Part shown: positions 30,978 to 52,949 of the stretch, one piece after another
Numbering within the stretch: the stretch's first letter is position 1
Layout: each line of letters opens with the position of its first letter
From: an uncultured Phycisphaerales bacterium
Lineage (GTDB): Bacteria; Planctomycetota; Phycisphaerae; Tepidisphaerales; Tepidisphaeraceae
DNA length: 64,000 nucleotides
Reading direction: 5' to 3'
Assembly (NCBI GenBank): GCA_963758525.1
Contig: CAVWVQ010000003.1
Span: forward strand, 1,824,001 to 1,888,000
The notes under the pieces: generated by a model
What the model was told of the DNA's origin: nothing
What the model saw: only the letters and a program-made list of their open reading frames with translations
The model's database searches: none
Position numbers and translations under genes: made by a program

Positions 30978-31545
30978 ATTTGTCTTTGAAGACGCTCACC
31001 GATTGCTATCGAACATCTCCATCAGAGGACGAAGCGATGCCACTCCAGTCGGCCCGCGTCGCCAAAGTTAATCAAAACGCCGACCCGCAGGCCGGTCGCG
31101 CGAGCACGAATTCGCACGAATCTTCACGAATGGATTAGTGACTGTTCTTTCTTCTTCGTGAAGATTCGTGCAAATTGGTGCTCATTCGTGTTCCTCTTCA
31201 TTTGTCTTTGAAGACGCTCACCAATTGCTATCGAACATCTCCATCAGAGGACGAAGCGATGCCACTCCAGTCGGCCCGCGTCGCCAAAGTTAATCAAAAC
31301 GCCGACCCGCAGGCCGGTCGCGCGAGCACGAATTCGCACGAATCTTCACGAATGGATTAGTGACTGTTCTTTCTTCTTCGTGAAGATTCGTGCAAATTGG
31401 TGCTCATTCGTGTTCCTCTTCATTTGTCTTTGAAGACGCTCACCGATTGCTATCGAACATTTCCATCAGAGGACGAAGCGATGCCACTCCAGTCGGCCCG
31501 CGTCGCCAAAGCTAATCAAAACGCCGACCCGCAGGCCGGTCGCGC
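30880..31545. repeat. Tandem array, 3 x 222 bp (CACGAAT hairpin + GxxExxY 3' end)
   Basis: Units start at 30880, 31102 and 31324; four single-base differences seen among the copies. Confidence 0.95.
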
Positions 31546-31841
31546 AGGTAGTTAAGCACTTGGGCTTCGTCGGCATCCGTCGTTCGCTCCGCTGCTTTCA
31601 GCTCGACAAGCACCGCACTGCCACACACGAAATCAGCAACGAACATCTTCTTGAGAATTCGATCCTTATACTTGATCCGCAAGGGCACTTGCGGCAAGAA
31701 CGAAATGCCTCGGTCGGCCAACTCGTATTCCATCGCCTCTTGATACACGCTCTCCAGGAACCCGGCGCCGAGTTCGTTGTACACTTCCATCGCAGCACCG
31801 ACGATCTGATACACTTCTTCCTTTAAAAGCAGCTCGCTCAT
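31466..31841 (-). CDS. GxxExxY family protein (PD-(D/E)XK-like; 2-bp indel near 31545)
   Basis: YQIVGAAMEVYNELGAGFLESVYQEAM, ADFVC..VLVELKA, EAQVLNYL, then GLRVGVLISFG..LEWHRFVL* in the shifted frame. Confidence 0.9.
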
Positions 31842-31898
31842 AGAAATTGTCCTTTGCACAGCCAAGTCTTCATGTTTTGCACTGAACCCCGCTTTTTG

Positions 31899-35288: not shown

Positions 35289-35540
35289 TCAGGGCAGCGC
35301 CACCGCGTCGGCGTCGATCTCGATTTTGGCGGTCGCAAAGCCGGCGGCTTGGATTTGGCCGATGGCAGAACGGAACGCCTCTTCCAGTGAAACGGCCTTG
35401 CGGTCGAAGTGGACCCAGGCGGTGCCGTTAGACGATGCCGGCGTGCCGTCCTGGCAGCCCGCGTGGAACAGGGCATCGGCCTGGTCGTCTGTGACTTGCG
35501 TCGTATCTTTCAGCACTACGTTAAATTCATAAATCTTCAT
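35289..35540 (-). CDS. Small HicB-like (antitoxin-like) protein
   Basis: YEFNVVL...ADALFHAGCQD...VHFDRKA.SLEEAFRSAI..I..AG; GGAG RBS; downstream of the HicA-like gene. Confidence 0.55.
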   Translation of the reverse strand: MKIYEFNVVLKDTTQVTDDQADALFHAGCQDGTPASSNGTAWVHFDRKAVSLEEAFRSAIGQIQAAGFATAKIEIDADAVALP

Positions 35541-35788
35541 AGCGGCTCCATGGATACTGCCAGCGGACTCGTGCGGACAGGCATTCACCATCCGCCGAAG
35601 ATAGGCGACGTGGTGTTCGGGCACGCGGGGCGTGCCATACACACTGACGATGCAACCGCCGCGCACTGCGCGGGACAAAACAGCCGGCCCCACGCGTGGG
35701 CACGCGAACCCGATTTAATCAGCCGCCAGCCACTATCCAGCGCATAATCGATCGCTGCCCGGATGTGCTTGTTCGGGTGGTCGTTCAT
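35541..35788 (-). CDS. Small HicA-like (toxin-like) protein, indel near 35670
   Basis: HPNKHIRAAIDYA..GWR....AHAWGRLFCP / CIVSVYGTPRVPEHH...RRMVNAC; no stop seen before the next ATG. Confidence 0.55.
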
Positions 35789-35890
35789 GAATCGGGCCGT
35801 TGATATTACGGGGCGCGCCTTTTGGAAACAACTTGCGCACGCCGCACCGAGAAAACAACGGAACCCAACGCCGGCATTGTAAATTGGCAA

Positions 35891-37149
35891 TTAGTCATCA
35901 CCATCTCTGAGCATCCAATGGATCGTTCTCTCGGCTAGATGATCGAGCGCGCGAACGGATAGCTCGATGTGTTCTTCTTTCGTGTCTTCAATTTTGTTAT
36001 GGGAGATGCCGCGCAGGCTCTGCACGAAAAGCATGACCGTCGGCACGCCCGCGCGAGAGACTTCCGCGGCGTCGTGAAGCGGACCGCTCGGCAGCCGATG
36101 GGAGATGCCGCAAACTTCTGCAATCGACTGATCGGCCATCGCGATCAGGTCGGGGTGAAACGGAATTGGCGGAATATTCCAGGTCTTTTGCCAGGCAACG
36201 TCGATCTTTTCCTCGACTGCGATTCGCTCGCTTGCTTCGCGGGTCTCGCGGAACATCGCGGCTAGTTTCCCGGCGTCGAGGTGGCGGAGGTCGAGGGTCA
36301 TCTCCGCCTCTCCGGCGACAGCGGTGACGATGCCGGGGCGGGTGACGACCTTGCCGACGGTACCGACGCCGCCGCGCCTGATTGCGATTTCGCGGACGGC
36401 CAGGTGCAGTTTCGACACACCGCCCAGCGCATCGCGCCGATGCGACATCGGCGTCGAGCCGGAATGGGCGGCCTGGCCCGTGAACGTGATTGCGTGGCGC
36501 TCGACGCCAAAGGTTCCCAGGACAGCGCCCATCGGCAAGCCAAGGTGCTTGAGCACCGGGCCTTGCTCGATATGCAGTTCCAGATAGGCGGCGGCGTTGC
36601 GAAGTTCGGCGCTCGCTTGCGGCGCCAGATCGAGATCGACGCCGTGCTGCTTCACCGCTTCAACGAGCTGAACGCCGGCGCGGTCGGTCAAATGCCGCAC
36701 TTCATCCGGCACCAGCGTCCCCGCCGCCGCGCTGGATCCGAAAAGGCTTCGGCCGAAGCGTGCTCCCTCTTCGTCCGCCCAATCCACGAGCCGGACTGTC
36801 ACCCCCGGCGTGCCTTGAGCGGCAATCCTGCGCAACACCTCCAGCCCGCCAAGGACATTCAGGCATCCATCGAGCCATCCGCCGTTGGGAACAGAATCGA
36901 TGTGACCGCCGATCAACAGCGCGCGATCGCTTTTGCCCCGCAAGGTCGCCCACAGATTGCCGGCCGGGTCGTTGTGCACCTCCACCGGCAGCGCCGCCAG
37001 CTTTTCCCGAAGCCATTTGCGGGCAAGCACCACGTGGGGGTGAACGCGACACGCTGCGCGCCGTCGGCATCGCCGGTCAGTTCGCGCAGTTCCTTCAATT
37101 CCTCAACGGTGCGTGCTGGCGAGAGAATGCCGTCGAGTGGCGTTGTCAT
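35891..37149 (-). CDS. Hydantoinase/carbamoylase (M20) amidohydrolase, probable beta-ureidopropionase (indel ~37030)
   Basis: GAQRVAFT N-terminus in ORF 36913-37149; GHIDSVPNGGWLDG, DEEGARF, ELHIEQGP, GQAAHSG, SGPLHDA, GISHN. Confidence 0.88.
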
Positions 37150-37273: not shown

Positions 37274-40200
37274 TCACTTTGCCGCTCTTGCGGGGTTCTG
37301 GGTCGGGGGATAGAAGCTTCCTGCCTGCGACGCGGCGATCCGCTCGATCTGATCGCGCGGCACGGTGGACGGCTTCACCAGGCACATAAAGCTTTCCATT
37401 TCCTGCACATCATTCTCGACCCCCATCACGAAGTGGCCGCGTGATTTTCTCGCGAGCTTGTCGGCAGTGTCCCCGAATCTGGAACGGAGTTTGTCAATTG
37501 CGGTTTTTGTTGTGAGCTTCCCGGCGAAAGTGGTGGTGATGTTGTCGAGGGCTTTATAGTCGAAGTCGCCGACGTTCTGACTTGCGAGCATCACGCCGAC
37601 GCCCGCCGCGCGGCGCGGCGCAGCAGGTTTTCCATGCCGGGTTTGGTCACCGGCTTGCTCGTGGCGGGAATGTAGAGATCGGCTTCGTCGAACATCAGCA
37701 GCGCCTGCAGCCGGCCGTCGGGGGAGGGAAATTGCTGGATGAAGCTTCCGGCCGCGGCCAGAAACTGCGCGATCCAGGCGAGCGACGAGTCACCTTCGAG
37801 AAATTGGGTGCAGATGATGTTGAGCGGCACCTTTCCGAGTCGGGGCTGCAGAAGCATGCGGGGCAGATCCACTTTCTCGCCGTCGTCGCTGAAGAGGCGG
37901 CCGTGCGCAACGCGCCGCTCGTTGAGGCGCCTGCCGACCTCCTCGCAATGTTTGGCGCCGTGTGCCGGCAGGCGGCCCAGCAGTTCCTGCGGCGCGCTGA
38001 GCAGCAGATTTTCAAGGGCGTCGAGGTTGTGCGACATCGGAGCGGTGCAGAGCAACTCGATCGCCTTCGAGAGCACGGTGGCGAACATGTCGGTCTTGGA
38101 CGGCGTTGCGGCGCAGATGTGACAGAGAATCATTGCGGCCTGGCGGGCCTGCTCCTGCCGCTCGTGTTCGTCAACCTTGCTCAGATCGGCCGGCAACAAC
38201 GGAAGCACCAATGGTCGACCGGCAGCGGAGCCGGGCGTGTAGAGAGAGATATCGAGCCGGTCGCGGAGCGCGCGGCGGCGCTCTGTTTCATCGGGCGCTT
38301 CGGTGTCCTGCGTCCAGGCTTCCTCGACCGCATACGTCGCCAGATCACCTTTTCGATCGAAGAGAATGACGGCCACGCCCCGCTCCAACAACCTTTCCAC
38401 GATGTTCAGGGCCAGCACGGTCTTGCCGCTCCCATTGGCGCCGAAGATGGCGGTGTGACGGGTGAGTGACTGGGGATCGAGCGTCACCTCTGTCCGAAGG
38501 AAGCCATCCGATGTGCCGATTGCGAGCGGGCCGGTCGATTGCAGCGGAACAAATCGAGGCTCCGCGGAAGCGAAATGCAGCCGCTCGGCCGGCAGAAGCA
38601 GGCGCTCTGCTTCGGGCGATGCCTCTGGCACTGCCTGGGCGGTGACGGTCGCAGCGCCCGCTGGATCAGACGCCGTGTCGACTACTGTGGCGGACGCTTG
38701 GGTCGCGGGAACCTGCTGCAATCCGCGCCGCTGGATAATGGCGTGAAGCTCCGGAAGTCCGGCAAGCGGCATATCGCTCTTTCGCCATTCCGCGACGATG
38801 TCCGGCGCGAACTTCGCGGCGTGCGATCCCAGGAAGTCGCGCATCGCCTGCATGGTCTGCCAGCATGGCTCGTCTATGACCTGACAGACGCCGCCCGATT
38901 TGCGCAGCTCCGCGAGGTGTTGAGCAAGCTTTCCTTTGCCGGGGAAACGGGTGCTGCGGATGACGACCACGCCTTGCTGGGGCGAGGTGCGGAGAGCCTC
39001 CAGCGTGGTCACCTGCTTGTACAGGCCATTGCCGCGAGCGTCTTTTTCGCAGAGGCCGATCAGACGCCGCAGGGGCGGATCGCCTGTCCGATTGAGGGAA
39101 AACGAAATCGGCGAAATGCCGCCGGCGGTGGCGAGCGAGGCATCGATCATGATGGTCGAGCGTTCGGGCAACTCATTGGGCAATTCGCCCAATGTCCACC
39201 TCAGCAGATCGAGATGCGCAGCCTCATTCTCGGCGACTTTGTGCTCGCCGGCGGTGCGAAACTCATTCCACGCGAGCCGCAGGCGGTCAACGTCTTCCGG
39301 CTCGGGTGAGATCGGCCGGACGATGTCCTCCTGCTTCCATTCCACGATCGCCTTGGCGCGATGACACGCATGCCAGTATCGGTGAACCTGCTGAAGCACG
39401 TCGCGCAGGTGTTGTCCTCCCAATCGTTCGGGGAGATTCTCCGGCATGGGATAGACCGAATCGGGCGGGACGTGCTGCAGCCCCACCCCTTCGTACAGGC
39501 CTTTCAGCCGGCGGGAAACGATCTGGCGGATCTCCTGGGAGCTTCGCGCGGCGATGAGCACGACGGGGCTTGGCTCGTTCTCAATCCGATGACGGTACGA
39601 CGTGATCAGATGCGGCGCGTGGACTTCGTATGCCGAATCGAGGCAACTCAGCAGCACCATCATCTTCGGCACATTCTCGATCAGCTCGCAGGCGCTCCCC
39701 ATCGCTCGCGTGAACGGGTCGTGGTTTTTTCCCGTGATGTCGCTGGCTTCGATCTGATCCACGCAGATGACCAGGGGCGAGCCGAGCGCGGCGACGGTGA
39801 TGTGCGCTAATTGTCCCAGCAGGTGCATCGGCTCACGGTTGCAATCAGGCGGTAGCGCGGCAAGCGTCCGCCAGTCCATGCCGCTGAGCGGCTCCCCATT
39901 GAGGAAGCTGCTCACGCGGCGCTGAATCGCCTTGCGATTGCTTTGCCGATACAGGAACGCGCGCAGCGTGTCCAAGTCCACGTCGGCGTAACGCACGCGC
40001 CCGTTCTCGTCCTTGGCCTCACTGAGCACATCGGCACATTCGTTGACGAGCCGTGCGAGCGATTCTTCATCAGCGTCCCGGAGTTTCTCCGCCGCTTCGT
40101 GCTCCAGTCCGGAGGATTCGGCGAGCGCGTCGCTGATCAGGTCCAGCGCACTGAACTGTTCCACCTGATCGGAAGCATGGAGATAGGCATCCGACAGCGA

Positions 40201-40541
40201 TCTGACCACCTGCCGGAGCAGATATTTGCGGTAGTCGCCGTGCTCGCTGGTCATGTGAACGTACGCGATGACACCGCGATGCTGGCGGTGCGTCTGCGCC
40301 CGCAGCGCAGGATCAGGTGGGTCTTCCCGCAGCCCGCTTCTCCCTTGATCAGCAAGACCCTGCTGACGCTTCCTGCGCGGACGCCGTCGAGCGTGGCGTT
40401 GAATGCCTCGCGCGCGCCAAGGTGAAGTTCCTCGACGTCGAAGGGATCGGCAAACGCGATCTGCGTCCCCTGCACCACCGAACCCAGCACCTCATGGCCG
40501 CGCTCGCGAAACACCTCGTCGCGACAATCGACTTCATCCAT
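37274..40541 (-). CDS. ~1090-aa fused AAA-type ATPase + HerA/DUF87-type ATPase (indels ~40307 and ~37610)
   Basis: Walker A GEAGCGKT with Walker B LVICVDQIE; second module RHTAIFGANGSGKT, ILFDRKGD, LLMFDEAD, RRARAAGVGVMLASQ. Confidence 0.8.
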
Positions 40542-41625
40542 GGCTTCCCCCGGTATTGCTGACGCGGATGTAATGAAATCGCGATGCGCCGGTCCTGACC
40601 TCGGAATCGCTGAAATCCTGCGCGCGATCTTCCGGGATGAGATCCTCCCGCACGAGCACAAGCTGAGTGCCGTTGACTTCGGAGAGGTTCTGCTTGAACC
40701 GCTCCAGCGGAAGCGGCCCGTAGGTCCGCTCATATTGGCGCCAGGCATAATGCACGAGCACCTTGTCGCCGAGATTTGAAACACCGGCCCCGCCCACATG
40801 CGCGACCGCCTGGGCGGCGGCCAACGCCTGGCGGGAGAACGTGGCAGGATCGGCATACGAATCTGCGTGAGCGCCGAGCCCGGCCGGATCGAGTGGCGGC
40901 GCGGACGGCGTCGGAGCCCTGACGCCCAGCCATCGCTTTACGACGGCGAACTTGATTTGCTTCGCCTGGCAGTGATCCAGAATTTTGCAGACGACTGCAG
41001 CCAACAGCTGGTCGAGTTTTGCCGCCTTTGTTTCCGGTTCTCCCAACAGCGGACCGACTACAAGCGCTGGAAGCACGCCGTCCGTAAGCTTCTTCAAATA
41101 GATTCTATCCGTGGGCACGTGCGACATCCGCGACAGGGCAAGTTTCACCAGTTCAAGCTTTGCAACATCGAGTCCGCGATCGAGCGGAACCGGCAAATCA
41201 AGCTGTTGGATGCAAACGGCCAATGGGAGCAACGCGGTAAACGTCTTCTGAGATTTCTTGTCGGTCTGCGGAAGCGGCAAACCGCTGGCGATTGCCGGTA
41301 ATTCATAGGTGCTGATCGATCCGAACGGTCTGGTGCTCACCGGAAGACTCGTTCGTCCCAACCGCCGACTCACGTACGCCTGCCCCGATTCGGTGATTTT
41401 GAAACTGGCCTTGGCGGTTTTCCTCGCTGGCTGGATTCGCTCCGCGCGTGCCGATGTGACCAGTCGCTCGAGCGCCGTTGGCGCAAGGCTTTGGGCGGCG
41501 CCTTGCGGCACCATCGGCTTCATCGCGGTCGCCAGCGAAGCCGCAGTGGCCGGCTTGCCCGTCTGGCACCACAGCCATGCCAGTACCACAAGCTCCAATC
41601 GCTCTTCGTTGACTTCGCTCTGCAT
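40534..41625 (-). CDS. Uncharacterised 363-aa protein (wHTH-like N-terminus)
   Basis: Intact ORF 3 bp from the upstream stop and overlapping the downstream ATG; ALERLV...FKITESG wHTH-like end; C-terminal DKVLV...FKQNL...L.REDL...SEV...FHYIR. Confidence 0.7.
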   Translation of the reverse strand: MQSEVNEERLELVVLAWLWCQTGKPATAASLATAMKPMVPQGAAQSLAPTALERLVTSARAERIQPARKTAKASFKITESGQAYVSRRLGRTSLPVSTRPFGSISTYELPAIASGLPLPQTDKKSQKTFTALLPLAVCIQQLDLPVPLDRGLDVAKLELVKLALSRMSHVPTDRIYLKKLTDGVLPALVVGPLLGEPETKAAKLDQLLAAVVCKILDHCQAKQIKFAVVKRWLGVRAPTPSAPPLDPAGLGAHADSYADPATFSRQALAAAQAVAHVGGAGVSNLGDKVLVHYAWRQYERTYGPLPLERFKQNLSEVNGTQLVLVREDLIPEDRAQDFSDSEVRTGASRFHYIRVSNTGGSHG

Positions 41626-41628
41626 TAT

Positions 41629-42930
41629 TCACCTCCCCAAAATCTCATCTTCAATCGGCGCACCCGCGTCGCGCCGCGACCGCCGTGACTGCACGACTTC
41701 GATCACCCGGCCGACGATCATCTCCAGTCGGTCGGGCACATCCTCGGCAAGAAACCGCAAAACCGCCATCCCCTGCCGCTGCATCAGCCAATCTTTGGCG
41801 CGATCCCTGCGATATGCCTCTTTGTCCTGAAAATGGAAGTAGCCGTCCACTTCGATCGCAATCGATAATGCCGGGCAGAGCAGATCGATTTCCGCCTTCC
41901 GATTCCCGAACATGAAACCGCCGTCGGCATTGAGTACGAACAGTCCGGTAGTCGCGGCATCGGCTTGCAGCGCAGCGTACAGCAGCGCTTCGGCCAGACT
42001 GCGCACCGCAGCATACTCGGCGGGCGGCTCGGTTTGGACCGACGGCGCGGATGCGCCGACCTGCAACGCAACTCTCACTGCTCCGCGGGCGCGATCACGC
42101 AAATTCTCGATCGCGGCGCTCGTTGGCAATCCAGGATCGGAGCGTCCCGCTCGGGCGTCAGCCCGTGGTTCGCACGCGATTTCGACGGCGGCTTGCGAAG
42201 AGCGTTGCATAAGCCCCGGCGGGTCGCTGGCGCAGACGCTGAGCCCATCTCGCAGGATCGCCGGCGTGTGGGAGTCGAGTAATTCCTGCAATCGGCTCCA
42301 CGCGTCGGAGTCGGCGACGACAACCAGCCGCATCTCGCGAATTACTTCGACAGCACCGGCGATCCACCGAATCGTTTCGGCCATTTGATCTGCCTGGCTC
42401 GACGCCATGATGACGATGGGCCGAAGCCCGCCCCACAACTCCGCCACCATTTCCAAGCGCTCGACGTCGCCCAGTCCCCGCGCCCGCAAGTGATCCAGAG
42501 TTTCGCGGACCACCTGAGCGGGACTGCCGGCGGTGCTTACTGCGAGCAGCCGGGCAAACTCGTCTGCGCCGTGGCGGCCTTGCAACGTCCGCTCCGACTC
42601 GGCTTGCCACAGTCGCTCGGGGACCGACTTCGCGGGCTCCGCAATCTGCAGCACTTCCCGCGTGCGACCCAGGAGCATGTCGGCAACGTGCGCATCGAGC
42701 GGTTCATCTACTCCGCACCAACTCGACAGGAAACGCGTCACGTCGAGCGGCGACTGCACGAAGAACGGTAGTGATTGGCGGCCCGACGGATCAGACAATC
42801 GGTCCGATATTTTGATCGCCTTTGACTCGAGCAAGACCGCAATTCGACGATCGGCCGTTAAGAGTTCCCGGAGGATCTGCGGAGGTCCAGGAAGTCCGGG
42901 AGGAACCAGTTGTGGAGAGAGAATGCCCAT
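41629..42930 (-). CDS. DUF559/Vsr-like endonuclease-domain protein
   Basis: C-terminal RSLAEALL...EIDLLC...IAIEVDGYFH...YRRDRAKD..MQRQG..VLRF; long unassigned N-terminus. Confidence 0.85.
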   Translation of the reverse strand: MGILSPQLVPPGLPGPPQILRELLTADRRIAVLLESKAIKISDRLSDPSGRQSLPFFVQSPLDVTRFLSSWCGVDEPLDAHVADMLLGRTREVLQIAEPAKSVPERLWQAESERTLQGRHGADEFARLLAVSTAGSPAQVVRETLDHLRARGLGDVERLEMVAELWGGLRPIVIMASSQADQMAETIRWIAGAVEVIREMRLVVVADSDAWSRLQELLDSHTPAILRDGLSVCASDPPGLMQRSSQAAVEIACEPRADARAGRSDPGLPTSAAIENLRDRARGAVRVALQVGASAPSVQTEPPAEYAAVRSLAEALLYAALQADAATTGLFVLNADGGFMFGNRKAEIDLLCPALSIAIEVDGYFHFQDKEAYRRDRAKDWLMQRQGMAVLRFLAEDVPDRLEMIVGRVIEVVQSRRSRRDAGAPIEDEILGR

Positions 42931-43523: not shown

Positions 43524-45020
43524 TCAGACTGCCGCGTCGTTCACACGGGCGGGACGTCCGTGCCACGGGGGAGTGTGCCAGGCGCCGTCGCTGGAGCCGT
43601 TGAGAAGTTCGGGATGGCGGGAGGTTTGGCGCTCGTACTCGATGAGGATGTCGTTCAGAGCGGCGTCGGCTGACGGACTGACGTCAGCTAAGACCGCGAC
43701 GGTGCCTCCGCTGCCGCCGCCAGTGATTTTGGCGCCGTAGAGGCCGGCGCGCTCGCGCTTGCGGACCAGAGACACCAGGAGATCGCATTCCTGGGCGCCG
43801 AGCATGGCGTCCATGGTGTAGGACTGATGGGATGCGTACATCAGATGACCGGCGCGGTCGAGAAGACCGCCGCGGCGTTTGGCATCGGGGGCGAGCGCGG
43901 CCTGGGTCAGAAATTCCACGAACCGTTCGACTCGCCGTGCCTCCAAAACGTGATGATCTGTTGCATGACGCACGAGATAGTCGACGGCGGGATCGACACT
44001 GGTTGCGCGATCGATCGTGGGACCATAGCGATCGAGAAATTCCTGGCCGCGGATCGTTTCGGGCACGCGGGGACGGAAGATCGATTTGTAGTCGTCGCGT
44101 TCGACGTTGGCGAGGTAGCCGCGCATCGGATCGCCGATCAGCTCGCGTCCGGCGGCGGCGCCGATCTCGCGCATCGCCGCGAGAATGATCGTGTGCCCCA
44201 TGAACGCGGCGCATCGGGTTCGGCCGTAGGCGCCGCCGCCGACGCTGTGCTTCACGTTGCTGTTGATGCCGACGAAACGCGCGCCGGGCGGCAACGGAAG
44301 CGGGTCCTGCAGCTCGTGGGGTTGGCAGACCATGCGGAGCAACGATCCGCTTTTTCCCAGGCAGCAGGCAACCTGGTCCATGATCCCGCAGGGCGCGCCA
44401 ACGATCCGATTCTCGACTTCCTGCGAGAGCGCCGCGACGACAAGGCCATCGGCAATGTGCTTCCCACGGGAGGGATCGCGCAGGGAAAAATGATCGACGA
44501 AATTCAGCATGGTCGCGACTTCGATGGCGGCCGACGAGCTGACGCCGGCGCCGAGCGGAACGGTGCTGAGAATCGCCAGATTGAATCCACAAATCCCCGG
44601 ATCGTTCAAGTCGATGTAGCCGTGCTCGTGAAGAATGAAGAGGCACCCCGCGACATATGCCGCCCATTGCCGGCCGGGCTCGGCAAATTCGCGGCGCAAC
44701 GCTTCAGGGCTGCCGCCGGCGAGGGCGTCGAGAGAGATGCCGAACGTGAAGGGACGGTGTTCGTCGAGCAGGTTGAAGCTGAAAATGCGCAGCTCGCGAT
44801 CGGTCCGCTCCTGCGAGATGACCGCGGCGGCGCGATCGAGCGTCGCCTCGGCGACGAGCGAGCCGGTGTAATCGGCGATGCCGCCCATCACGTCGAGCCG
44901 CCCGGGGGCCCGGCTCACGCGCATTGCGCGGGTGAAGTCGAAGGATGCGGAGAGTTCGGCACGAGTGCGCTGCAGCAGCATCGGCACGGGATCGAGCTGC
45001 AGAATGTCGTTGGCGGGCAT
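43524..45020 (-). CDS. GHMP sugar kinase (L-arabinokinase/galactokinase-like)
   Basis: RAPGRLDVMGGIADY, VPLGAGVSSSAA, CGIMDQ, GAKITGGGSGG. Confidence 0.88.
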   Translation of the reverse strand: MPANDILQLDPVPMLLQRTRAELSASFDFTRAMRVSRAPGRLDVMGGIADYTGSLVAEATLDRAAAVISQERTDRELRIFSFNLLDEHRPFTFGISLDALAGGSPEALRREFAEPGRQWAAYVAGCLFILHEHGYIDLNDPGICGFNLAILSTVPLGAGVSSSAAIEVATMLNFVDHFSLRDPSRGKHIADGLVVAALSQEVENRIVGAPCGIMDQVACCLGKSGSLLRMVCQPHELQDPLPLPPGARFVGINSNVKHSVGGGAYGRTRCAAFMGHTIILAAMREIGAAAGRELIGDPMRGYLANVERDDYKSIFRPRVPETIRGQEFLDRYGPTIDRATSVDPAVDYLVRHATDHHVLEARRVERFVEFLTQAALAPDAKRRGGLLDRAGHLMYASHQSYTMDAMLGAQECDLLVSLVRKRERAGLYGAKITGGGSGGTVAVLADVSPSADAALNDILIEYERQTSRHPELLNGSSDGAWHTPPWHGRPARVNDAAV

Positions 45021-45029
45021 GACAGGAAC

Positions 45030-45569
45030 TTAATGCGACGGCGTCTGCTCGGGCGCGTGTACGTTGTGTCGGCCGAAGGATTTCTTTTCGGGGTCATTGC
45101 CCTCGATGACAACCTGGTCGAACAGCCGATGCCCCCCAAGATCGAACTCGGCTGTCAGCACATAGTTTCGTTCGCGGGACAGATTGGGCTGGGCCAGCTC
45201 GAAGCTGTAGCCGCGGATGGCGCTGTTCCAATTGGCGATCTGCTCGTCCCTGGTGAGAAGCGAACCGACCCACGGCCCGCCGACGCGTTCGCCTTTGGGA
45301 TCGGGGGCCGAGTACCGATAGGCGTAGAGCTCGAAGATCACTTTGCCCGTGGCGCGAGTGGTATCGCCGAACTGATCCTGCAATTCGATGACGGCCTCGA
45401 TCCCATCGGGTTTATTGTCGCCGGTCCAGTCTTTGATTTCGGTAAACGTGGGATGCAGGCGCATGGACTGCGGGCCGAACATCTCGTCATCGGAGGCGGA
45501 GCGACCGATCGAGTTCCCCTGGCATCCCCAAGCCGTCAGAGCGAGCACGAGCCAGATTCCTCGCCGCAT
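45030..45569 (-). CDS. Hypothetical lipoprotein
   Basis: MRRGIWLVLALTAWGC lipobox-like signal; 9 bp from the kinase start. Confidence 0.7.
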   Translation of the reverse strand: MRRGIWLVLALTAWGCQGNSIGRSASDDEMFGPQSMRLHPTFTEIKDWTGDNKPDGIEAVIELQDQFGDTTRATGKVIFELYAYRYSAPDPKGERVGGPWVGSLLTRDEQIANWNSAIRGYSFELAQPNLSRERNYVLTAEFDLGGHRLFDQVVIEGNDPEKKSFGRHNVHAPEQTPSH

Positions 45570-45671
45570 GAAGGGAAGGTAGGGGTGACGGGGAGGAGTG
45601 TCAAACTATGCCCGGTGAACAAAGCATTCAAAGGTGTCAAACGGCGGGCACTTGGCGATATACTAGCTGAT

Positions 45672-46236
45672 ATGACGCTCGCGGAAGTAGAAAAACGGGT
45701 GGCTGCACTCGAATCGGTCATCGGGAAGCTCGCCAACGGCAAAAAGAAGCCAAGTTTGCAAGGCTGGTGGCGTGAATCGGCTGGGAAGTTTGCCAACGAC
45801 CCAGTGTTCGATGAAATCGTTCGTCTCGGACGAGAGTATCGTCGGTCTCTTGGAAACAAGACGAAGGCGAAACGTGCTTTTGGAGAGGTTGGAGAGTTCG
45901 TCGGATCCAGACGTGCAAGTCACGATCGTGAGCTTCGAGGAACAGATGCGAGGCTGGCTTGCTTTCATATCAAATGCACGTAACCCCGAAGCTCAGGTGA
46001 ATGGCTATTACCGCCTTCACGCCCTGCTCGACGACTACACTCGTCGACCGCTTCTAGACTTCGATGATATGGCGGCTGCAATCTTTCAGCGGCTTCGCAA
46101 GCAAAGGGTTCGCATCGGAACCATGGATCTCCGGGTCGCCGCGATCGCTCTTGGGAACGATGCAACGTTGATTTCGCGAAACCTCGCGGATTTTCGCCGC
46201 GTACCCGGTCTCAGGGTGGTCGATTGGACGACTTAA
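45672..46236 (+). pseudogene. Degenerate vapBC toxin-antitoxin pair (antitoxin 3' end and PIN 5' end missing)
   Basis: Antitoxin MTLAEVEKRVAALE...WW...GKFANDPVFDEIVRLGREYR runs into PIN remnant VTIVSFEEQMRGW...GTMDLRVAAIAL...SRNLADF..VPGL..DWT, which lacks the N-terminal LDT motif. Confidence 0.75.
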
Positions 46237-46337: not shown

Positions 46338-49300
46338 TCAATCTTCAATCACCACTTTGTTCTCGTCTGAATTGCCCTTCAATTCCGGTGCGTACATTGC
46401 ACTGGCTCTGGTCGGCAACGCGCTGAACTTTCCGGGGATTTCGGCTCTGAGCCGGTATGAGACAGAGTGCTTGCCGCGGGCCAGTGCCCGCGCGAAGAAG
46501 CTGACGCGGTCGTCGCGCAGTTCCATATAGGCGTTAAGATCGTTGCCGTTGTAGCCGCTCTGCAGATCGACAGGCTCGAAGCCGGCGGCTTTCATGTCTT
46601 CGAACAGGACATACTCGTAGTCGTTCTTGCTGTCGATCTCAAGCTCGACTTCGATCAGATCTCCGCTTTTGAGCGCTTCGCCGTCGGCGATTTCCTTCCG
46701 CTCGTATTTTTCCACACTCTGGTCCAGCGCCTGTCCGCGCTGCCCGGAAACTTTGGCGGTCTCTTTCACTTCGATCAGCTTGTAGAACTTGCGTTGCACG
46801 CGGACTTCCAGCCCGGCTTTTTTGATCGGATCCTCCAGCGTGAAGTTGGTGACATAGGCGCTGAAATAGAGCGGGCCGGCGCCGGATTTGGCGAATTCGA
46901 TCTTGTGCTGGCCGGTGATGACGTCGTTGCCGCTCAGCACGACCTTGTTGTCAAACGAGAAGAGATTGGTCGCATCGATATGCACCTGCTTCATCTGCTT
47001 GCCGTCGATGCTGACCGTCACGGTTTCGTCCGGCTTGTCTTCGCCGCTGGCGCGGATGTAGTCGGCCAGGGCCTCGATGCAGATCGCGGTATCGCGGGTG
47101 CTGTTCCAGTACGACGCGTGCTTGCGATTGGTGATCAGATACTTCGCGAGGCGGGCGGTCACTTCGCCGTGCGGATCGGTCCGGCTCAGGAGCTTGAGAT
47201 AGTACCCCATCGCCTCGGTGTCAGAGCCGTACCAGCACCACCAGTAATTCTCAGCGGGGAGCTTCAGGTACGCGGTTTGGTCTTCGTTGTCCTCAACGAC
47301 GTATTGGGAAATGTTCTGCAGCAGCATGTCGAGCTTCTGCTTCTCCCCCTGTTTTTCAAGAGCGAGCGCGAACATCGCTTTGCCGTAGACGGCGATATCG
47401 TTTCGATCGCGATAGAGAAATGCGGTCATCTTCGGATCATGCACATCCGCATCGGCCAGCACCATATAGACAAACGCGTCGAGATCGTCTGCCGTCTCCT
47501 TCCACGGATCGATCTTGGCAGGGGCATTTTCGAGCATTTTCACCTGGCGGTTCTGATAATCGACGAGCCACTGCTGGCCGCGTTCGAGCAGGTTGCCGGG
47601 GAGGACGACGCCGTTGGATTTGGCGATCTGCAGGCCGTGCACGACCAGCGCGGTGGTGTGCGGCCAGGAGGATTCGCCGATGCCGCTGAACCATCCCCAG
47701 CCGCCGTCGGCAACCTGCATGTTGGCCAGCCGCTCGATTCCTTCGGCTGTCATGTCCGCGACCACTTTCTCGTCGAAGACGGGATTGCGCTGCCCGACGC
47801 CGGGGTTTGGCGGATTGTTGCGTTTCCAGTCCTTGCGCGCTGGGCATCGTCGCCGATTTCCTGCGCGTTGAGATTGGTGCGTTTCTGCTCGATCGCCTTG
47901 AGATCGAGGTGCATCCCCAGCAGCACCTTCTGGGTGATGACCGTCGGAAGAAATCGATTCAGCGTCTGCTCGGTGCAGCCATAGGGATAGTCAACCAGAT
48001 AGGGCAACGCATCGACCATGGCGGACGCGACGCTGGGAGAATAGCGGATCTCCACCCGGCTCTGCTCGGGCAATCGCTCGGCGGGAACGTTGAACGTCAG
48101 CGACGCGTGTTCATCTTTCGGCCGCATCGCGCCGGAGAACGAATCGGTTTTGAGCATCCCATGAATTTCCACGGGGAAGGTCATCTGCATGGCATCGGAT
48201 TCTTCGTCGGTCAGCGCGGCAACTTTAATGTCCGCCGTGCCGGGAGCGACAGCTTTGACGCGCCAATCGACGCGGGTTTCCCCATCGGCGGGGATTTCCA
48301 CGGTTTGCGCAAGATTGCTGCCGGTCGACGAATCGACCAACGGCGCGAGCGTATTTCCGCCCAGATCGAGCGTGACCTTCACACTCTTGGCACTCTTGAG
48401 ATAATTGTGAACATTGGCCGAGAGAACCACTTCGTCCTTCTGCACGAAGAATCGCGGAGCCTGGAGACGGACGATCACGTTCTTGAAAGTGACGACTTCG
48501 GCTTCGCCTTGTCCGACGCGCGTGCCTGACGACATCGACCAGACCTTGGTCTTCCAAGTCGTGAGACTTTCGGGCATGGTCAGCTCAACCTCGGCGGTTC
48601 CATCAGCGTTGGTGTCGATGCGCCCGACCCATAGAGCGGTGTCGGCGAAATTCTTGCGGACGGTCGGTTGCACGGTTGGAGCGCCGCTTCCGCCGGGTTC
48701 GCGGGCGGACCGCTTGTCGCCGTCGGACCGGAAGTTACCCCCGGCGCCGGCAGCGTCGGCCGCCATCGGCGCAGCGGGCGCGGCGGAATCTGCCGCCATC
48801 AGTTGATTCTGCTCCGCCATTCCGAAGAGATTTCCTCGCACTGACTTCAACGCCTTGACTCTGCCGCCCGGCACCATTCCATGGACACGGCCCTCGTCCA
48901 TACCCACCTCTCCAAACGCGCCCAGCACGGACATCGCGACTTCATCCGAGTGATATAGCGGCGTTCCCTCGCGGTCGAGGCTCGATTCTGTCTGCGGATA
49001 GTGATTCCGTCGCCATTTCCAGAAGAATGCCTTGATCTCCTCGACGTTGGATCCGCCGGAGATGTACTCGACGGCTTTGTCGTAGATGCTCACAACTTCC
49101 GAGCCAGCGACCGGCGCTCCGTTGGCATCGGTCACCTTGATCTGGACTTTCGCCTTCTCCCCGGGCCGATATTTCTCCGCCGAGGGAGTGACCGCCACAT
49201 TCACCACCCTGCTCTCCGGCGGCACCACGATCTCGCGGACGTCGTCAAATACTTTTGCGTCGCCCACCGTCAGCGCCTCGATGAAAAAGTTCGGCGTGTC

Positions 49301-52300
49301 CTTCTTCACCACCGCCACGTCCTCAATGGTGCTCTTTCCCTTGAGCCGCAGAACCTTCGGCGGCAGGTAGATGCCATTGCTCGGGCGAAGGAACAGGACG
49401 ACCGTTGAATCGGCACGATCGGTGTTGATCATCAGCCGGACGGTGTCGCCGGCCTGGTATTCCTTCTTGTCGGTTGTCAGTTCAATGTCATTGAAGCGGA
49501 ACTGCTGGCCGTTGAATCCCTCGCCGCGAACCACCAATACGTACCCGCCCTCGATGCTCCTGCCCCTGGCATCAGTCACGCGATAGCTGAGGCGGTATTG
49601 CCCGCTGGCGGCAGCCTTGATCTGCTGATGCGCCAGGCCCTGCGCGTCGGTGTCGAGCGCCCAATGCTCGACCTCGTTTTCGACGGGATTGCGATCTTTG
49701 TCGTAAGTAACACGCAGGAGCTTCAGCTCCCCCTTCGCGCCGGCGATGGGCTTGTTGTCGAGCGTCTGCGCGGAGAATGAAGCCTCGATCGCATCGCCCG
49801 TGTTGTAGTAGCCGCGATCGACCCAGGCGTAGACGCTGAATGGCTTGCGCGCGACGAGCACGTCGCCGGCGCCGACGATCGTCCGGCGCGATTGGTCGGT
49901 GACCTCTGCCGTGATCGAATAGCTCTGATCTTCGTCGCCGTGGACGGCCTTGGCGGGCGCGGTGTCGATCTCGACTTTTACCGTGCCGTCGGGACCGACC
50001 GGCACGTCGTTCTCCGCCACCACTTCCGGCGGGGCTGACTGGCGCGGCCACCAGAGGCGCAGCGGCGCCCGCATGCCCCAGTCGTTCCAGCCGCGATACC
50101 AGTTGTATTCCGCCGCAAACCACCAATAGCCCGGCTCATAGAACCAGTCCCACCGCGCGGCGGGAAACCAGCGGGCGTCGTGCGCCTGCCGCAGGATTTT
50201 GTAATGCACTTTCGCGTTGACGACGGGCGTCCCGAAATAGTATTTCGCCCGGATCGTGGCGGTGATCTTGTCGCCGAGCTGGATCGGCTCGGTCGGCGCG
50301 TCGACGGTCACTTCGTATTCCGGTTTCTTGTATTCCTCGACGCGGAAATTCCCGCCGCCGAAGTTGTCGACTCCCAAGGCGTAAACACCCAGCGTCGCGT
50401 CGGCGGGTATCGTATATTCCCCGTCAAACCCCCCGAATTCATCTGTCTGGTACGTCTTTTCAAGCACCTTTTCGCCGCGCGGATCCTGCATTCGCAGCAG
50501 CGCGCTGACGTTGGCGAATTCTGATTTGCTCTCAAGATCGTATTTGGCGGTTTCGAGCCAGAGCTTGAACTTTACGGTCTGGCCCGGCCGGTAGACGGGC
50601 CGGTCGGTGATGAGAAAGGCCTTTCGCTGGTTGTACTGGGCGTCGTAATATTGGCCGCCCCAAATTCCGGTGAAACCCAGGTACGCCAGGCGACCGTCCG
50701 GCGTGGTGGCGGTCGTGAGCCACTGGAAATTGGCGTCATTGCCTGTTGCGTCCAGCGAGCACTGCCCGTCGGCGTCGGTCGTGCCGGAGGCATTTTGCGT
50801 AATGATGCGGACGCGATTGTCGGCATACTCCTGGCGATAGCCGAAAAACTGCATCTTCGCGTTGGGAACCGGCGCACCGGTGACGGCATCCGCAACGAAA
50901 AAGTACGCTCCGTTCTCGCCGCGCTTCTGGACGATCGCCGTGTCGGCGATCCAGAGAATGATGCGCGTCGTGTTTCCATCCTCCATCCGCGCGGTGATCA
51001 GATAGGCGCCGGGTTGCTTGATCGGCACATCGACTTTCACGCGCCGATCGAAGTGTTTGGGCCGGGGCTGCAGGTCCATGTCCCATTTGGCCGTTTGCCT
51101 GATCAAGTATTGCTTCTGGTTTTTCTCGACCAGGCGATAGCCGAGATTGTTGACGTCGATGGATTGCCAATCGAGTTCACGCGGGTGCGCGGCGATGGCT
51201 CCCTGCACATCGTCGAGCAGCCTTTTGACATCGATCTCCTGCGCATCGAATGACACTTTCGTGCCGTTGCGGAAAACCAGGTAGGCCGACGCATTGGTCC
51301 CGGACGGCTCGGTTTCCGCTGCGTCGAACACGGCCCAATTCTTCAGGATCTGATCGAGCCGCGATTGCTTCGCATGGTCGGGGCCCGGCCCATAATCGGC
51401 GATGCTCTTCTTCCAATACTCCGCCGCCCGGTCGTACTGCTGGCGATTCTCGAAAAGTTCGGCAAGCTGCTCCAGCGCCTGCTCGCCCCAGTTCGATTTC
51501 TTCTCCGCAACCGACTGGAAGAGATGGATGAAATTGAACTCCTCGGGCAGCTTGAACCGCTTAATCCCACTGGCCAATCGCGCGATCGTTTCATCCTCGC
51601 CGAGCGTCTGGACGGCATAGGGGCCGCTCTCGTCCTTGCGCGTGGAATCGTCGTCCGCGGCGGGGCCAATATCGGCGCCGCGACCGAAGAATCGCGGGCC
51701 CATGTAAGCCATCGTCTGCACACCGAACTGAGTGTGCAGAAATTCAGCAAAGACGTATTTCGCGTGCAACGCCGCGTCATCTGACGTTTGGCCGGCTTGC
51801 TCAAGACACCATCGCCAGCGTTCGCCGTCGGTCTTGGCGTCGTTCCAGGATTTGGGGATCGCGTGATAAACAGGCGATCCGTCTTCATTCACGGGGGCGC
51901 CACGATCGTTGCTGTCTCCGTAATAGCGGAATCCCTCCTCGTAGTCGGGAAGCTTGGCGAAGTCGGAGAGGTACTGCAGTTTCCAGGCGCCGTCGCCGGG
52001 GCGGTTATCGAGGAGAACGCCGGCAAAATTGAAATAGAAAGCTCCCAAGGCGTTCTTATCCGGCTCATTTGCCGCGATCGGCATCGCCTGCACCATAAGT
52101 TGCAGGGCGCGGACGCGATCGCGCTCGAAAGTTGCCACCTGGCGGCCGTCGCCTTGCCGGCGTCCGCCGCGGTAGAACTTTCCGGCGACGATGGTCCCGT
52201 ACCCTTCCCCGTTCAGGTAGCTCTGGGCCGCCGCATCGAGCAGCCGCCAGTTGTTTGCGTGGGCGGCGATGGTCTTTTCGCGGAAGTCGTCAATCTCGTC

Positions 52301-52552
52301 GCTTCGGCCGAGCTGCTGCAGACATTGAATGCCGTTGACCAGGTCGTCTGATACGAGCATGGGATCATCCGTCGGATCCGTGGCGAGCATTGCGAACCCC
52401 GATTCGTAGGCGTCTTTCCAGTTTCCCTTTTGTTGCGCGGATTGCGCGGCTTCTCGCCGTTGCCCGGCGCCCGATTCGGCGGCGACTGCTCCAAGATAAA
52501 GGCCGCTCAGCGTGAGAAACAGAGCGTACAACCCCAGAACGCGTTTCGACAT
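46338..52552 (-). CDS. Bacterial alpha-2-macroglobulin (indel ~47835)
   Basis: TDRPVYRPG, FRVEEYKKPEY, VRKNFADTALW, LQAPRFF, YPYGCTEQT thioester motif, DGGWGWF, YRLRAEIPG...ASAMYAPE. Confidence 0.93.
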
Positions 52553-52739
52553 AGCAGTTTCCTCGAGTCCGCCCCCCGCCTTTGACGCAAGCGGCGCGCG
52601 GAAGTTCCCGCCGCTCGTACCACGGGTTCCCAACCCGTGCGAGAGATGCAGGATTCTAACGAGGATAGCTGAATGCTGCGGTTTTCTTACTACCGTGGCG
52701 CAGGGCGGGTTGGGAAAACCCGTGGTACGCCACGGCCGC

Positions 52740-52949
52740 TTACGCGTCGCGGCTGTTTTTCCCAATGAGGAAGTAAAGAATCATGCCGAGCACCGGCAGC
52801 AGCAAAATGACCAATGTCCAGAGAAGCTTATGCCCAGCCGTGCCGGCGCCGGCCAACACGCTGACGATCGCAATGATATCGAGTATCAGTACGATCAGTC
52901 CGAGCAAGCCGCCCCCTACCATCATGTCCGCGAGAATGAATTCAGCCAT
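52740..52949 (-). CDS. PLDc N-terminal-like small membrane protein
   Basis: LDIIAIVSV......KLLWTLVILLLPVLGMILYFLIG. Confidence 0.8.
   Translation of the reverse strand: MAEFILADMMVGGGLLGLIVLILDIIAIVSVLAGAGTAGHKLLWTLVILLLPVLGMILYFLIGKNSRDA

What the first reader, a model, noticed from the sequence alone, without database searches (positions are those of the whole stretch)
37274..42930. Uncharacterised three-gene DUF559 nuclease / unknown protein / double-ATPase (AAA + HerA) operon: candidate defence or DNA-processing system
Seen: three same-strand ORFs with a 3-bp gap and an 8-bp overlap, lying between unrelated metabolic/repair genes. Repairing two single-base indels gives one ~1090-aa protein with two P-loop modules: an N-terminal GEAGCGKT/hhhhDQIE module and a C-terminal HerA/FtsK-type module (GANGSGKT, DRKGD, DEAD, R..G..SQ). 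The first gene has a Vsr-like DUF559 nuclease behind a ~320-aa unassigned domain. The middle gene has a wHTH-like start. Known: HerA-type translocases partner with nucleases or effectors (HerA-NurA, Sir2-HerA, DUF4297-HerA). Inference: this AAA-HerA fusion plus DUF559 plus an adaptor is not a named system I recognise, and could be a new anti-phage or DNA-translocating nuclease complex.
Basis: partly seen in the sequence, partly recalled or inferred. Interest (0 to 1): 0.8.

Follow-up and report, generated by a model that had tools for sequence, protein, structure and literature searches.

The report
Nuclease, DNA-binder, double-motor capture operon
Three tightly linked genes (a predicted DNA-cutting enzyme, a predicted DNA-binding protein and a protein that fuses two ATP-driven motors) form an operon shared by several bacterial phyla that likely traps and cuts invading DNA, and two of the genes, apparently without the cutter, are kept like essential genes in nearly every genome searched from three alphaproteobacterial families, which hints at an unknown everyday job.

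Summary
Three minus-strand genes lie with a 3-bp gap and an 8-bp overlap. The third is cut by two one-base frameshifts, likely assembly errors; homologues are single 1030-1130-aa proteins. That protein is an Orc1/Cdc6-type AAA+ domain, a likely inactive restriction-fold domain, and a HerA/FtsK pump close to DndH. The middle gene starts with a winged helix and precedes the ATPase in 67 of 73 related loci (the other 6 are cut by contig ends). The first gene carries an intact DUF559/Vsr-type nuclease (26 of 73 loci). No PADLOC or NCBIfam system matches, but the anatomy fits the Orc/CDC6-coupled 'HerA/FtsK capture systems' predicted in 2024 (PMC10853773); I found no experimental test. With the nuclease the operon is patchy (own family 4/122, Myxococcaceae 35/101), as defence systems are. 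The two-gene core, without the nuclease, is in 149/151 Hyphomicrobiaceae genomes. It is also in 11/11 of a syntenic sister family and 54/56 of a third family whose HerA domain is swapped for a DndH-like one. Verdict: a variant of a predicted, untested class; the fixed nuclease-less form is the surprising part.

The parts
41629..42930 (-). ORF1, 433 aa: N-terminal ~290-aa domain, likely a degenerate (inactive) AAA+/STAND-like domain, plus a C-terminal DUF559/Vsr-like PD-(D/E)XK nuclease
   Evidence: Pfam DUF559 in 18 of 19 aligned members; PDB 3hrl endonuclease-like protein E 2.6e-4; N-domain profile aligns with the Walker B-to-arginine-finger region of the operon's own AAA+ domain at E 7e-4, probability 27% (weak)
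41833..41892 (-). Nuclease catalytic motif E-x-D ... E-x-D-G-x-x-H, intact
   Evidence: E347 and E360 invariant, D349, D362, G363, H366 at least 90% conserved in A3
40534..41625 (-). ORF2, 363 aa: N-terminal winged helix, helical middle, linker, and a conserved C-terminal alpha/beta domain (likely a second winged-helix-type domain); constant partner of the ATPase
   Evidence: AF2 pLDDT 91; residues 2-139 match MarR/PadR winged helices, best Z 9.3, rmsd 3.4 over 88; no Pfam family shared by more than 1 of 58 members; next to the ATPase in 67 of 73 loci
40311..40541 (-). ATPase piece 1 (residues 1-77), with AAA+ Walker A GEAGCGKT at 40320-40343
   Evidence: 82% identical to P0002 1-77
40309..40311 (-). 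Frameshift 1 (one base short); likely an assembly error
   Evidence: Frame change; translation; not covered by the one near-identical run
37613..40308 (-). ATPase piece 2: rest of the Orc1/Cdc6-type AAA+ domain (Walker B DQIE 39748-39759), likely inactive REase-fold domain, Pro/Ala linker, most of the HerA/FtsK domain (Walker A 38419-38442, DEAD 37678-37689)
   Evidence: 73-84% identical to P0002; AF2 model of homologue P0005 and fold search
37610..37614 (-). Frameshift 2 (one base short, in a GC-rich repeat-like run) at the HerA arginine-finger motif; likely an assembly error
   Evidence: Frame change between P0002 residues 1012-1014; not covered by reads
37274..37612 (-). ATPase piece 3: HerA sensor Gln (SQ) and C-terminus
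   Evidence: 88% identical to P0002 1013-1108

Best explanation
The three genes form one operon, and their proteins likely build an ATP-driven machine that would catch foreign double-stranded DNA and cut it. Shown: the gene order, the fusion, intact catalytic motifs in both ATPase domains and the nuclease, the folds, co-occurrence, patchy spread and exchange of parts. Inferred steps: (1) ORF2's winged-helix domains bind DNA and load the ATPase. (2) The Orc1/Cdc6-type AAA+ domain oligomerises around DNA as its structural relatives ORC, TnsC and BrxC do, with the inactive restriction-fold domain as an extra DNA or partner contact. (3) The HerA/FtsK ring pumps the DNA. (4) ORF1 docks through its degenerate AAA-like domain and its Vsr-type nuclease nicks or cuts. 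No methylase travels with the operon, so self and non-self are likely told apart by DNA state (free ends, or DNA being transferred, packaged or segregated) and not by a mark. The copy in this window is likely intact, its two frameshifts being assembly errors.
For: Folds: HerA 4d2i Z 31.4 (rmsd 3.7, 320 aligned) and DndH-C 7es4 Z 31.3 (rmsd 3.1, 326) for residues ~648-1040; ORC/Cdc6 Z 14.8 and 14.6, TnsC 13.9, BrxC 13.5 for residues 9-404. Walker A/B and arginine residues are conserved in 92 homologues. Co-occurrence: ORF2 in 67 of 73 loci and ORF1 in 26 of 73; all 35 Myxococcaceae genomes with the ATPase also have ORF1. Patchy spread: own family 4 of 122, own phylum 3 of 301, Myxococcaceae 35 of 101; neighbours differ from locus to locus. 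Defence neighbours in 2 of 9 non-alphaproteobacterial loci scanned (L030 BrxL and a PglW-like NERD kinase; L036 ThsB-like TIR, SIR2 and NERD). Likely effector swaps where ORF1 is missing: L019 has a Uzume-like GIY-YIG gene starting right after the ATPase stop; Polyangiaceae loci are followed by a STAND/WD40 gene and an EAD1-trypsin gene. HerA swap: one alphaproteobacterial family keeps the N-half and ORF2 but has a DndH-like HerA. The class was predicted in PMC10853773.
Against: No experiment exists that I could find. Five of the 9 scanned loci (L013, L049, L051, L052, L076) and this window have no clear defence neighbour, L022 has only Uma2 genes, and I ran no random-locus control. There is no hit on 72,556 plasmids or 50,697 phages. 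The nuclease-less pair is nearly universal, single-copy and highly conserved in Hyphomicrobiaceae (149 of 151 for each gene; 53-87% identity), which is not how defence systems usually behave. Eight non-alphaproteobacterial loci with enough upstream DNA also lack ORF1. The restriction fold of the middle domain and the AAA-like nature of ORF1's N-domain rest on topology and one weak profile match. The two breaks are not covered by reads.
Confidence: 0.55

Rival explanations
1. A cellular DNA-repair machine: a HerA-NurA-like end-processing or fork-rescue complex in which the Vsr-type nuclease replaces NurA.
For: The top fold matches include archaeal and Deinococcus repair HerA. The gene upstream in this window is an MGMT-type alkylation-repair protein. 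The operon is chromosomal only. The two-gene core is fixed in some families.
Against: No Mre11/Rad50/NurA or other repair gene recurs in the flanks scanned. Close relatives mostly lack it. Effector and HerA swaps are typical of conflict systems. A 'HerA-like DNA helicase' of M. xanthus (MXAN_4539) is listed among proteins with decreased values in the mitomycin C table of PMC12288472 (I could not show that it is this family).
Confidence: 0.15
2. The ORF2 plus double-ATPase pair is at heart a chromosome-handling motor (loader plus DNA pump for segregation or transfer into a bud). The nuclease is an optional add-on.
For: Both genes are in 149 of 151 Hyphomicrobiaceae genomes, ORF1 in 1 of 151, and that one sits beside a second copy of ORF2. 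A syntenic sister family has it in 11 of 11 and a third family in 54 of 56. Both active sites are intact. Transport of DNA through the stalk of a budding bacterium is active and its motor is unknown (PMC6650430).
Against: Only 43 of 301 genomes of the order have ORF2. Budding Planctomycetota mostly lack it (3 of 301). The cell shape of the two unnamed families is unknown to me, and Hyphomonas was not tested. For the window's own copy the nuclease is present and the spread is patchy.
Confidence: 0.15
3. Whatever the family does, this particular copy is a pseudogene: the two frameshifts are real.
For: There are two breaks in one gene, one just after the first Walker A and one at the HerA arginine finger, and no reads cover them. 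Split ATPases are also seen in L013, L031, L055, L063 and L085.
Against: Both breaks are one base short and there is no in-frame stop or decay (72% identity over the whole second piece). Near-identical contigs of run X1 differ from the window by single-base indels at 37029, 52704, 52715 and 52737. The 37029 change lies where the neighbouring hydrolase gene changes frame. A nearby GxxExxY gene matches its Pfam model only to position 94 of 117, and a large gene is split at 47750-47765. The assembly has 6 contigs, as long-read assemblies do (inference).
Confidence: 0.2
4. A selfish or domesticated mobile element whose TnsC/IstB-like AAA+ protein and winged-helix protein choose a target and whose pump moves the element's own DNA.
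For: TnsC and MuB are among the AAA+ fold matches, there are weak IstB hits, and insertion sites vary.
Against: No transposase, integrase or relaxase recurs beside it (one IS transposase in L101). G+C does not differ from the flanks. It is absent from the plasmid and phage collections.
Confidence: 0.07

Closest known systems
Orc/CDC6-coupled 'HerA/FtsK capture systems' (Rakesh, Aravind, Krishnan, NAR 2024, PMC10853773; comparative-genomic prediction)
   Same: Orc/CDC6 AAA+, a likely inactive REase after it, HerA/FtsK with a helical insert and no FtsK-alpha domain, an active REase, a separate fast-evolving winged-helix protein, no methylase, and exchange of the HerA domain between lineages.
   Different: Here the nuclease is a DUF559/Vsr domain behind a likely degenerate AAA-like domain (DUF559 and Vsr do not occur in the paper's main text). 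No winged helix with a wing is seen after the middle domain. A nuclease-less form is fixed in whole families, and Myxococcota and Planctomycetota are not named in the main text. Figure 7 and the supplement, which may list this family, could not be seen.
DndFGH (phosphorothioate-associated restriction module)
   Same: A DndH-like C-terminal HerA/FtsK fold (7es4, Z 31.3), a multi-wHTH partner (DndG), and three genes.
   Different: No DndF kinase, inactive methylase, TRD or SWI2/SNF2 part; there is an Orc/Cdc6 AAA+ instead, and the active nuclease is a separate gene.
BREX and BREX-related capture (BRC) systems (PMC12839542)
   Same: Orc/Cdc6-clade ATPase (BrxC Z 13.5; weak BrxD hit E 2.3e-5 in one homologue), a winged-helix partner, a likely inactive STAND-like domain (as BrxB), and HerA in BRC.
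   Different: No PglZ, methylase, DUF4007, GNAT or TGT; the ATPase and pump are fused.
Sir2-HerA (Nezha) and DUF4297-HerA anti-phage systems; HerA-NurA
   Same: A HerA motor coupled to an effector (PDB matches).
   Different: Similarity is limited to the HerA core and far below the NCBIfam cut-offs. The N-terminus is AAA+ plus a middle domain, and the partner genes are unrelated.

Membership tests
Orc/CDC6-coupled HerA/FtsK capture system (PMC10853773) | Orc/CDC6-family AAA+ ATPase | tested here: met
   Model residues 9-404 match ORC/Cdc6 at Z 14.8 and 14.6 (rmsd 3.9-4.0, 252-257 aligned); Walker A, DQxE Walker B and arginines are conserved
Orc/CDC6-coupled HerA/FtsK capture system (PMC10853773) | Inactive REase domain directly after the AAA+ core | tested here: inconclusive
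   AF2 gives helix-strand-strand-strand-helix-strand-helix-strand at 434-541, the REase-like order, with no conserved acidic or E-x-K motif; the domain was not folded alone, and profile searches gave no REase hit
Orc/CDC6-coupled HerA/FtsK capture system (PMC10853773) | C-terminal wHTH of the Orc/CDC6 unit after the iREase | tested here: inconclusive
   Three helices at 544-589 and no wing strands in the model; not searched alone
Orc/CDC6-coupled HerA/FtsK capture system (PMC10853773) | HerA/FtsK ATPase with Gln sensor, arginine finger and a 4-helix insert, without FtsK-alpha | tested here: met
   Z 31.4 to HerA and 31.3 to DndH-C; helices 771-858 inside the domain; R954/R956 and Q967 at least 90% conserved
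Orc/CDC6-coupled HerA/FtsK capture system (PMC10853773) | Active REase effector | tested here: met
   DUF559 with intact acidic and His motif; whether it is one of the paper's two REase families could not be checked
Orc/CDC6-coupled HerA/FtsK capture system (PMC10853773) | [quoted passage not shown] | tested here: inconclusive
   N-terminal wHTH shown; mean column identity 21%; the C-terminal domain was not searched alone, and no DndG or SspB row appeared
Orc/CDC6-coupled HerA/FtsK capture system (PMC10853773) | HerA/FtsK domains taken from different sources on the same scaffold | tested here: met
   L099 keeps the N-half (27% to P0013 over ~690 aa) and ORF2 (probability 99.6%), but its HerA aligns only at the Walker motifs and best matches DndH (E 5.7e-11)
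Orc/CDC6-coupled HerA/FtsK capture system (PMC10853773) | Anti-invader activity | not testable with these tools
   Needs a phage or plasmid challenge
BREX / BRC | PglZ and a DNA-modifying enzyme in the operon | tested here: not met
   No PADLOC or Pfam hit to PglZ, PglX, GNAT or TGT in the three genes or as recurring neighbours
DndFGH | DndF kinase, DndG, and DndH with inactive methylase, TRDs and REase | tested here: not met
   No Dnd model hit in PADLOC or NCBIfam for the three genes or their homologues; only the HerA fold is shared
Sir2-HerA / DUF4297-HerA / HerA-NurA | Stand-alone HerA of about 500-650 aa next to Sir2, DUF4297 or NurA | tested here: not met
   HerA_antiphage at most 31 bits against a cut-off of 800; the partners hit none of these families

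The most novel reading that the evidence does not exclude
A defence-type DNA-capture machine was domesticated twice in one alphaproteobacterial order: once in the ancestor of Hyphomicrobiaceae and a syntenic sister family, and once, with a different HerA domain, in a third family. Having lost its nuclease, it now serves as a chromosome motor, possibly the missing active pump that moves the chromosome through the hypha into the bud. The window's three-gene operon would be the armed ancestral form.
Probability: 0.12. Interest if true: 0.85.

Novelty: new variant of a known kind. Interest (0 to 1): 0.5.

Why it matters
A class predicted in one paragraph of a 2024 paper becomes directly testable. 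It has a compact three-gene form with named catalytic residues and intact copies in cultured Myxococcus, Archangium, Nodosilinea and Nitrosomonas relatives. If it defends without any methylase, it adds a way of telling foreign DNA by its state, using two motors in one chain. The nuclease-less form kept in about 99% of Hyphomicrobiaceae genomes points to a cellular job for the same motor. It is also a concrete candidate for the open question of how budding bacteria move DNA through a stalk or hypha.

Tried and rejected
Reads: the one run holding part of the stretch (X1, share 0.20) does not cover either ATPase break; no RNA holder was listed. Complex prediction of the ATPase N-half with ORF2 (Nodosilinea pair) gave no verdict (ipSAE 0.11, mark 0.32) and is used neither for nor against. 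ESM Atlas: ORF2 homologue P0018 finds only unnamed clusters and weak PadR/MarR rows; ORF1's N-domain gave no usable hit. Foldseek's top ORF2 row, MukF (E 0.04, TM 0.21), was considered as a kleisin likeness and rejected: weak, and no SMC gene recurs nearby. PADLOC mad8 hits (E 1e-18 to 1e-26) cover only the HerA core and no MADS gene set is present. Profile searches of the middle domain against PDB and against ORF1 found nothing meaningful. Eleven of the 60 relatives gave weak hits (E 1e-4 to 1e-8, other HerA proteins by inference) and were not counted. The one promoter-like and five terminator-like sites equal the shuffle expectation. G+C shows no island. Planned but not done because the script machine was lost: a genome-wide frameshift-rate control, and a systematic defence-neighbour count with random-locus control (replaced by hand-picked ORFs from 10, 4 and 4 loci). 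The ORF1 search was not run in the second and third alphaproteobacterial families; only flanks of two genomes each were read.
Full report
Observation. The window holds three minus-strand genes: ORF1 41629-42930, ORF2 40534-41625, and an ATPase spread over 37274-40541 in three frames, with a 3-bp gap and an 8-bp overlap as reported. They lie between an M20 amidohydrolase and an MGMT-type gene, with ordinary G+C. Homologue P0002 (1111 aa) covers the three pieces in order at 82%, 73-84% and 88% identity; each junction is one base short. The host is likely a Tepidisphaeraceae-type planctomycete, inferred from the names of the closest homologues.

Are the breaks real? Reads do not cover them. Indirect evidence favours assembly error. 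Near-identical contigs of run X1 show four single-base indels against the window (37029, 52704, 52715, 52737; each in one low-depth contig). The first falls where the neighbouring hydrolase changes frame, and other genes nearby are truncated or split. A genome-wide control could not be run. I put 0.8 on an intact gene.

The ATPase. Full-length 1030-1130-aa fusions are the rule. 14 proteins were found by word search, and a profile search listed 150 best hits, mostly end to end, of 1239 at E<=1e-30. One clade has about 200 extra N-terminal residues with no Pfam family. An AlphaFold2 model of homologue P0005 (pLDDT 91) has four parts. Residues 9-404 match ORC/Cdc6 (Z 14.8, 14.6), TnsC (13.9) and BrxC (13.5). 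Residues 434-541 form an alpha/beta domain in restriction-enzyme order without a catalytic motif (fold not confirmed by search). A disordered linker follows. Residues 648-1040 match HerA (Z 31.4) and DndH-C (Z 31.3). Both Walker sets, the arginines and the HerA Gln are conserved in 92 sequences.

The partners. ORF2 folds confidently (pLDDT 91). Its first 90-140 residues are a winged helix (Z 9.3); the conserved C-terminal domain was not searched alone. No Pfam family is shared by more than 1 of 58 members. ORF1 ends in a DUF559/Vsr-type nuclease with intact motif. Its N-domain has a P-loop-like start in most homologues and aligns weakly with the operon's own AAA+ domain (E 7e-4), so I read it as a likely inactive AAA/STAND-like docking domain. 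No PADLOC or NCBIfam model covers any of the three.

Synteny. ORF2 precedes the ATPase in 67 of 73; the other 6 begin inside or just before the ATPase. ORF1 is in 26 of 73: 26 of 40 non-alphaproteobacterial loci (6 of the rest are cut short, 8 truly lack it) and 0 of 33 alphaproteobacterial loci. Nothing else recurs across phyla.

Two regimes. With the nuclease the operon is patchy. ORF2 is in 4 of 122 genomes of the own family. The ATPase is in 3 of 301 of the own phylum, 32 of 121 of the order of Myxococcus and 35 of 101 of its family, where all 35 also carry ORF1 (36 of 101). Without the nuclease it can be fixed. In the family of Hyphomicrobium facile (G061; family name inferred from the record title) ORF2 and the ATPase are each in 149 of 151 genomes, almost always once, and ORF1 in 1 of 151, beside a second ORF2 copy. 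These ATPases form one short-branched clade (midpoint-rooted FastTree, 198 sequences of at least 950 aa) with both active sites intact. In the order, 43 of 301 genomes have ORF2. A second, unnamed family has the ATPase in 11 of 11; it is 54% identical and lies beside the same CAP and polysaccharide-flippase genes, so it is the same ancestral insertion by inference. A third has it in 54 of 56. In the one member I analysed, the N-half and ORF2 are homologous but the HerA domain is a different, DndH-like one. There is no copy on 72,556 plasmids or 50,697 phages.

Context. Of 9 non-alphaproteobacterial loci scanned, 2 sit among defence genes (L030: BrxL and a PglW-like kinase; L036: ThsB-like TIR, SIR2, NERD, antirestriction). 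One has a Uzume-like GIY-YIG gene right behind the ATPase in place of ORF1 (L019), one has only Uma2 genes (L022), and 5 have none. Sorangium, Chondromyces and Minicystis loci are followed by STAND/WD40 and EAD1-trypsin genes. L024 and L085 show no defence neighbour, and L063 has one AAA_21 ATPase. This is modest support, without a control.

Mechanism. Most likely (0.55): ORF2 grips DNA and loads the AAA+ ring, the HerA ring pumps, and ORF1 docks and cuts, with foreign DNA recognised by its state because no methylase is linked. Parts, motifs and linkage are shown; binding, order of events and target are inferred. Rivals are repair (0.15), a chromosome motor with an optional nuclease (0.15) and a mobile element (0.07); separately, this copy may be a pseudogene (0.2).

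What is known. PMC10853773 (I saw the abstract, search passages and two of twelve parts of the main text; not the figures or supplement) predicts mobile neighbourhoods of this kind. They combine Orc/CDC6, an inactive REase, a wHTH, HerA/FtsK (one version with a 4-helix insert) and an active REase, sometimes with a multi-wHTH protein, and are proposed to intercept invader DNA. The finding meets four of its features, three are inconclusive, and activity is untestable here. PMC12839542 (abstract, outline and passages) restates the class and adds BRC systems, whose PglZ and modification genes are absent here. PMC6650430 (passages) shows active DNA transport through the Hyphomonas stalk by an unknown motor. 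PMC12288472 (one table passage) lists a M. xanthus HerA-like helicase that I could not tie to this family. PMC7159879 (passages) describes iSTAND and EAD systems, not this one. Five searches found no test of this operon. The roles of TnsC, ORC, BrxB and NurA, and hyphal budding in Hyphomicrobium, are recalled knowledge. Earlier notes of this scan reached the same filing in other genomes, and one noted the conservation in Hyphomicrobiaceae. I had both results before reading them, and they are not independent evidence.

Verdict. A real, widespread operon; a variant of a predicted but untested class, not a new kind. Interest 0.5. The value lies in its testability and in the repeated fixation of the nuclease-less form, including a natural HerA swap.

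Noticed in passing
window 35891-37149 (-): The M20 amidohydrolase next to the operon changes frame near 37029; a near-identical contig of run X1 has one more base there, so the gene likely starts at 37149 and is intact.
   Followed up: yes
window 31512-31865 (-): GxxExxY-type PD-(D/E)XK gene (PDDEXK_3) matching only positions 2-94 of 117, then running out of frame; likely another assembly indel.
   Followed up: partly
window 46338-52765 (-): A large gene that looks like a bacterial alpha-2-macroglobulin (recalled likeness) is split into ORFs of 1671 and 475 aa; run X1 differs by three single-base indels at 52704-52737 near its start.
   Followed up: partly
window 35289-35890 (-) and 45536-46236: Two small gene pairs that look like HicAB-type and VapBC/PIN-type toxin-antitoxin modules (recalled likeness; no Pfam hit at 1e-5), about 1.4 kb and 2.6 kb from the operon.
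   Followed up: partly
window 43660-43677, 48746-48763, 60987-61087: Run X1 contigs join these places to each other with short inserts, suggesting a short dispersed repeat in intergenic DNA.
   Followed up: no
L099 262-4487 (G476) and the family of G529: A diverged ORF2-plus-ATPase pair with a DndH-like HerA domain; the ATPase N-half is found in 54 of 56 genomes of one alphaproteobacterial family.
   Followed up: yes
L019 11106-12053: In Planctopirus a Uzume-like GIY-YIG gene starts right after the ATPase stop and ORF1 is missing: a likely effector swap.
   Followed up: partly
L025, L040, L048, L070 downstream of the ATPase: Sorangium, Minicystis and Chondromyces loci (no ORF1 in L025, L040, L048; L070 is cut upstream) are followed by a STAND-NTPase/WD40 gene and an EAD1-trypsin gene.
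   Followed up: partly
L015, L023, L028, L029, L032, L044, L045; P0026, P0039 and kin: A Kofleriaceae-rich clade has about 200 extra N-terminal residues on the ATPase (no Pfam family) and, in several loci, a shortened ORF1 of 230-320 aa.
   Followed up: partly
L002-L005, L007-L009, L012: Relatives of the window's organism carry a different 810-880-aa HerA-type protein (about 26% identity to the C-terminal part), not examined.
   Followed up: no
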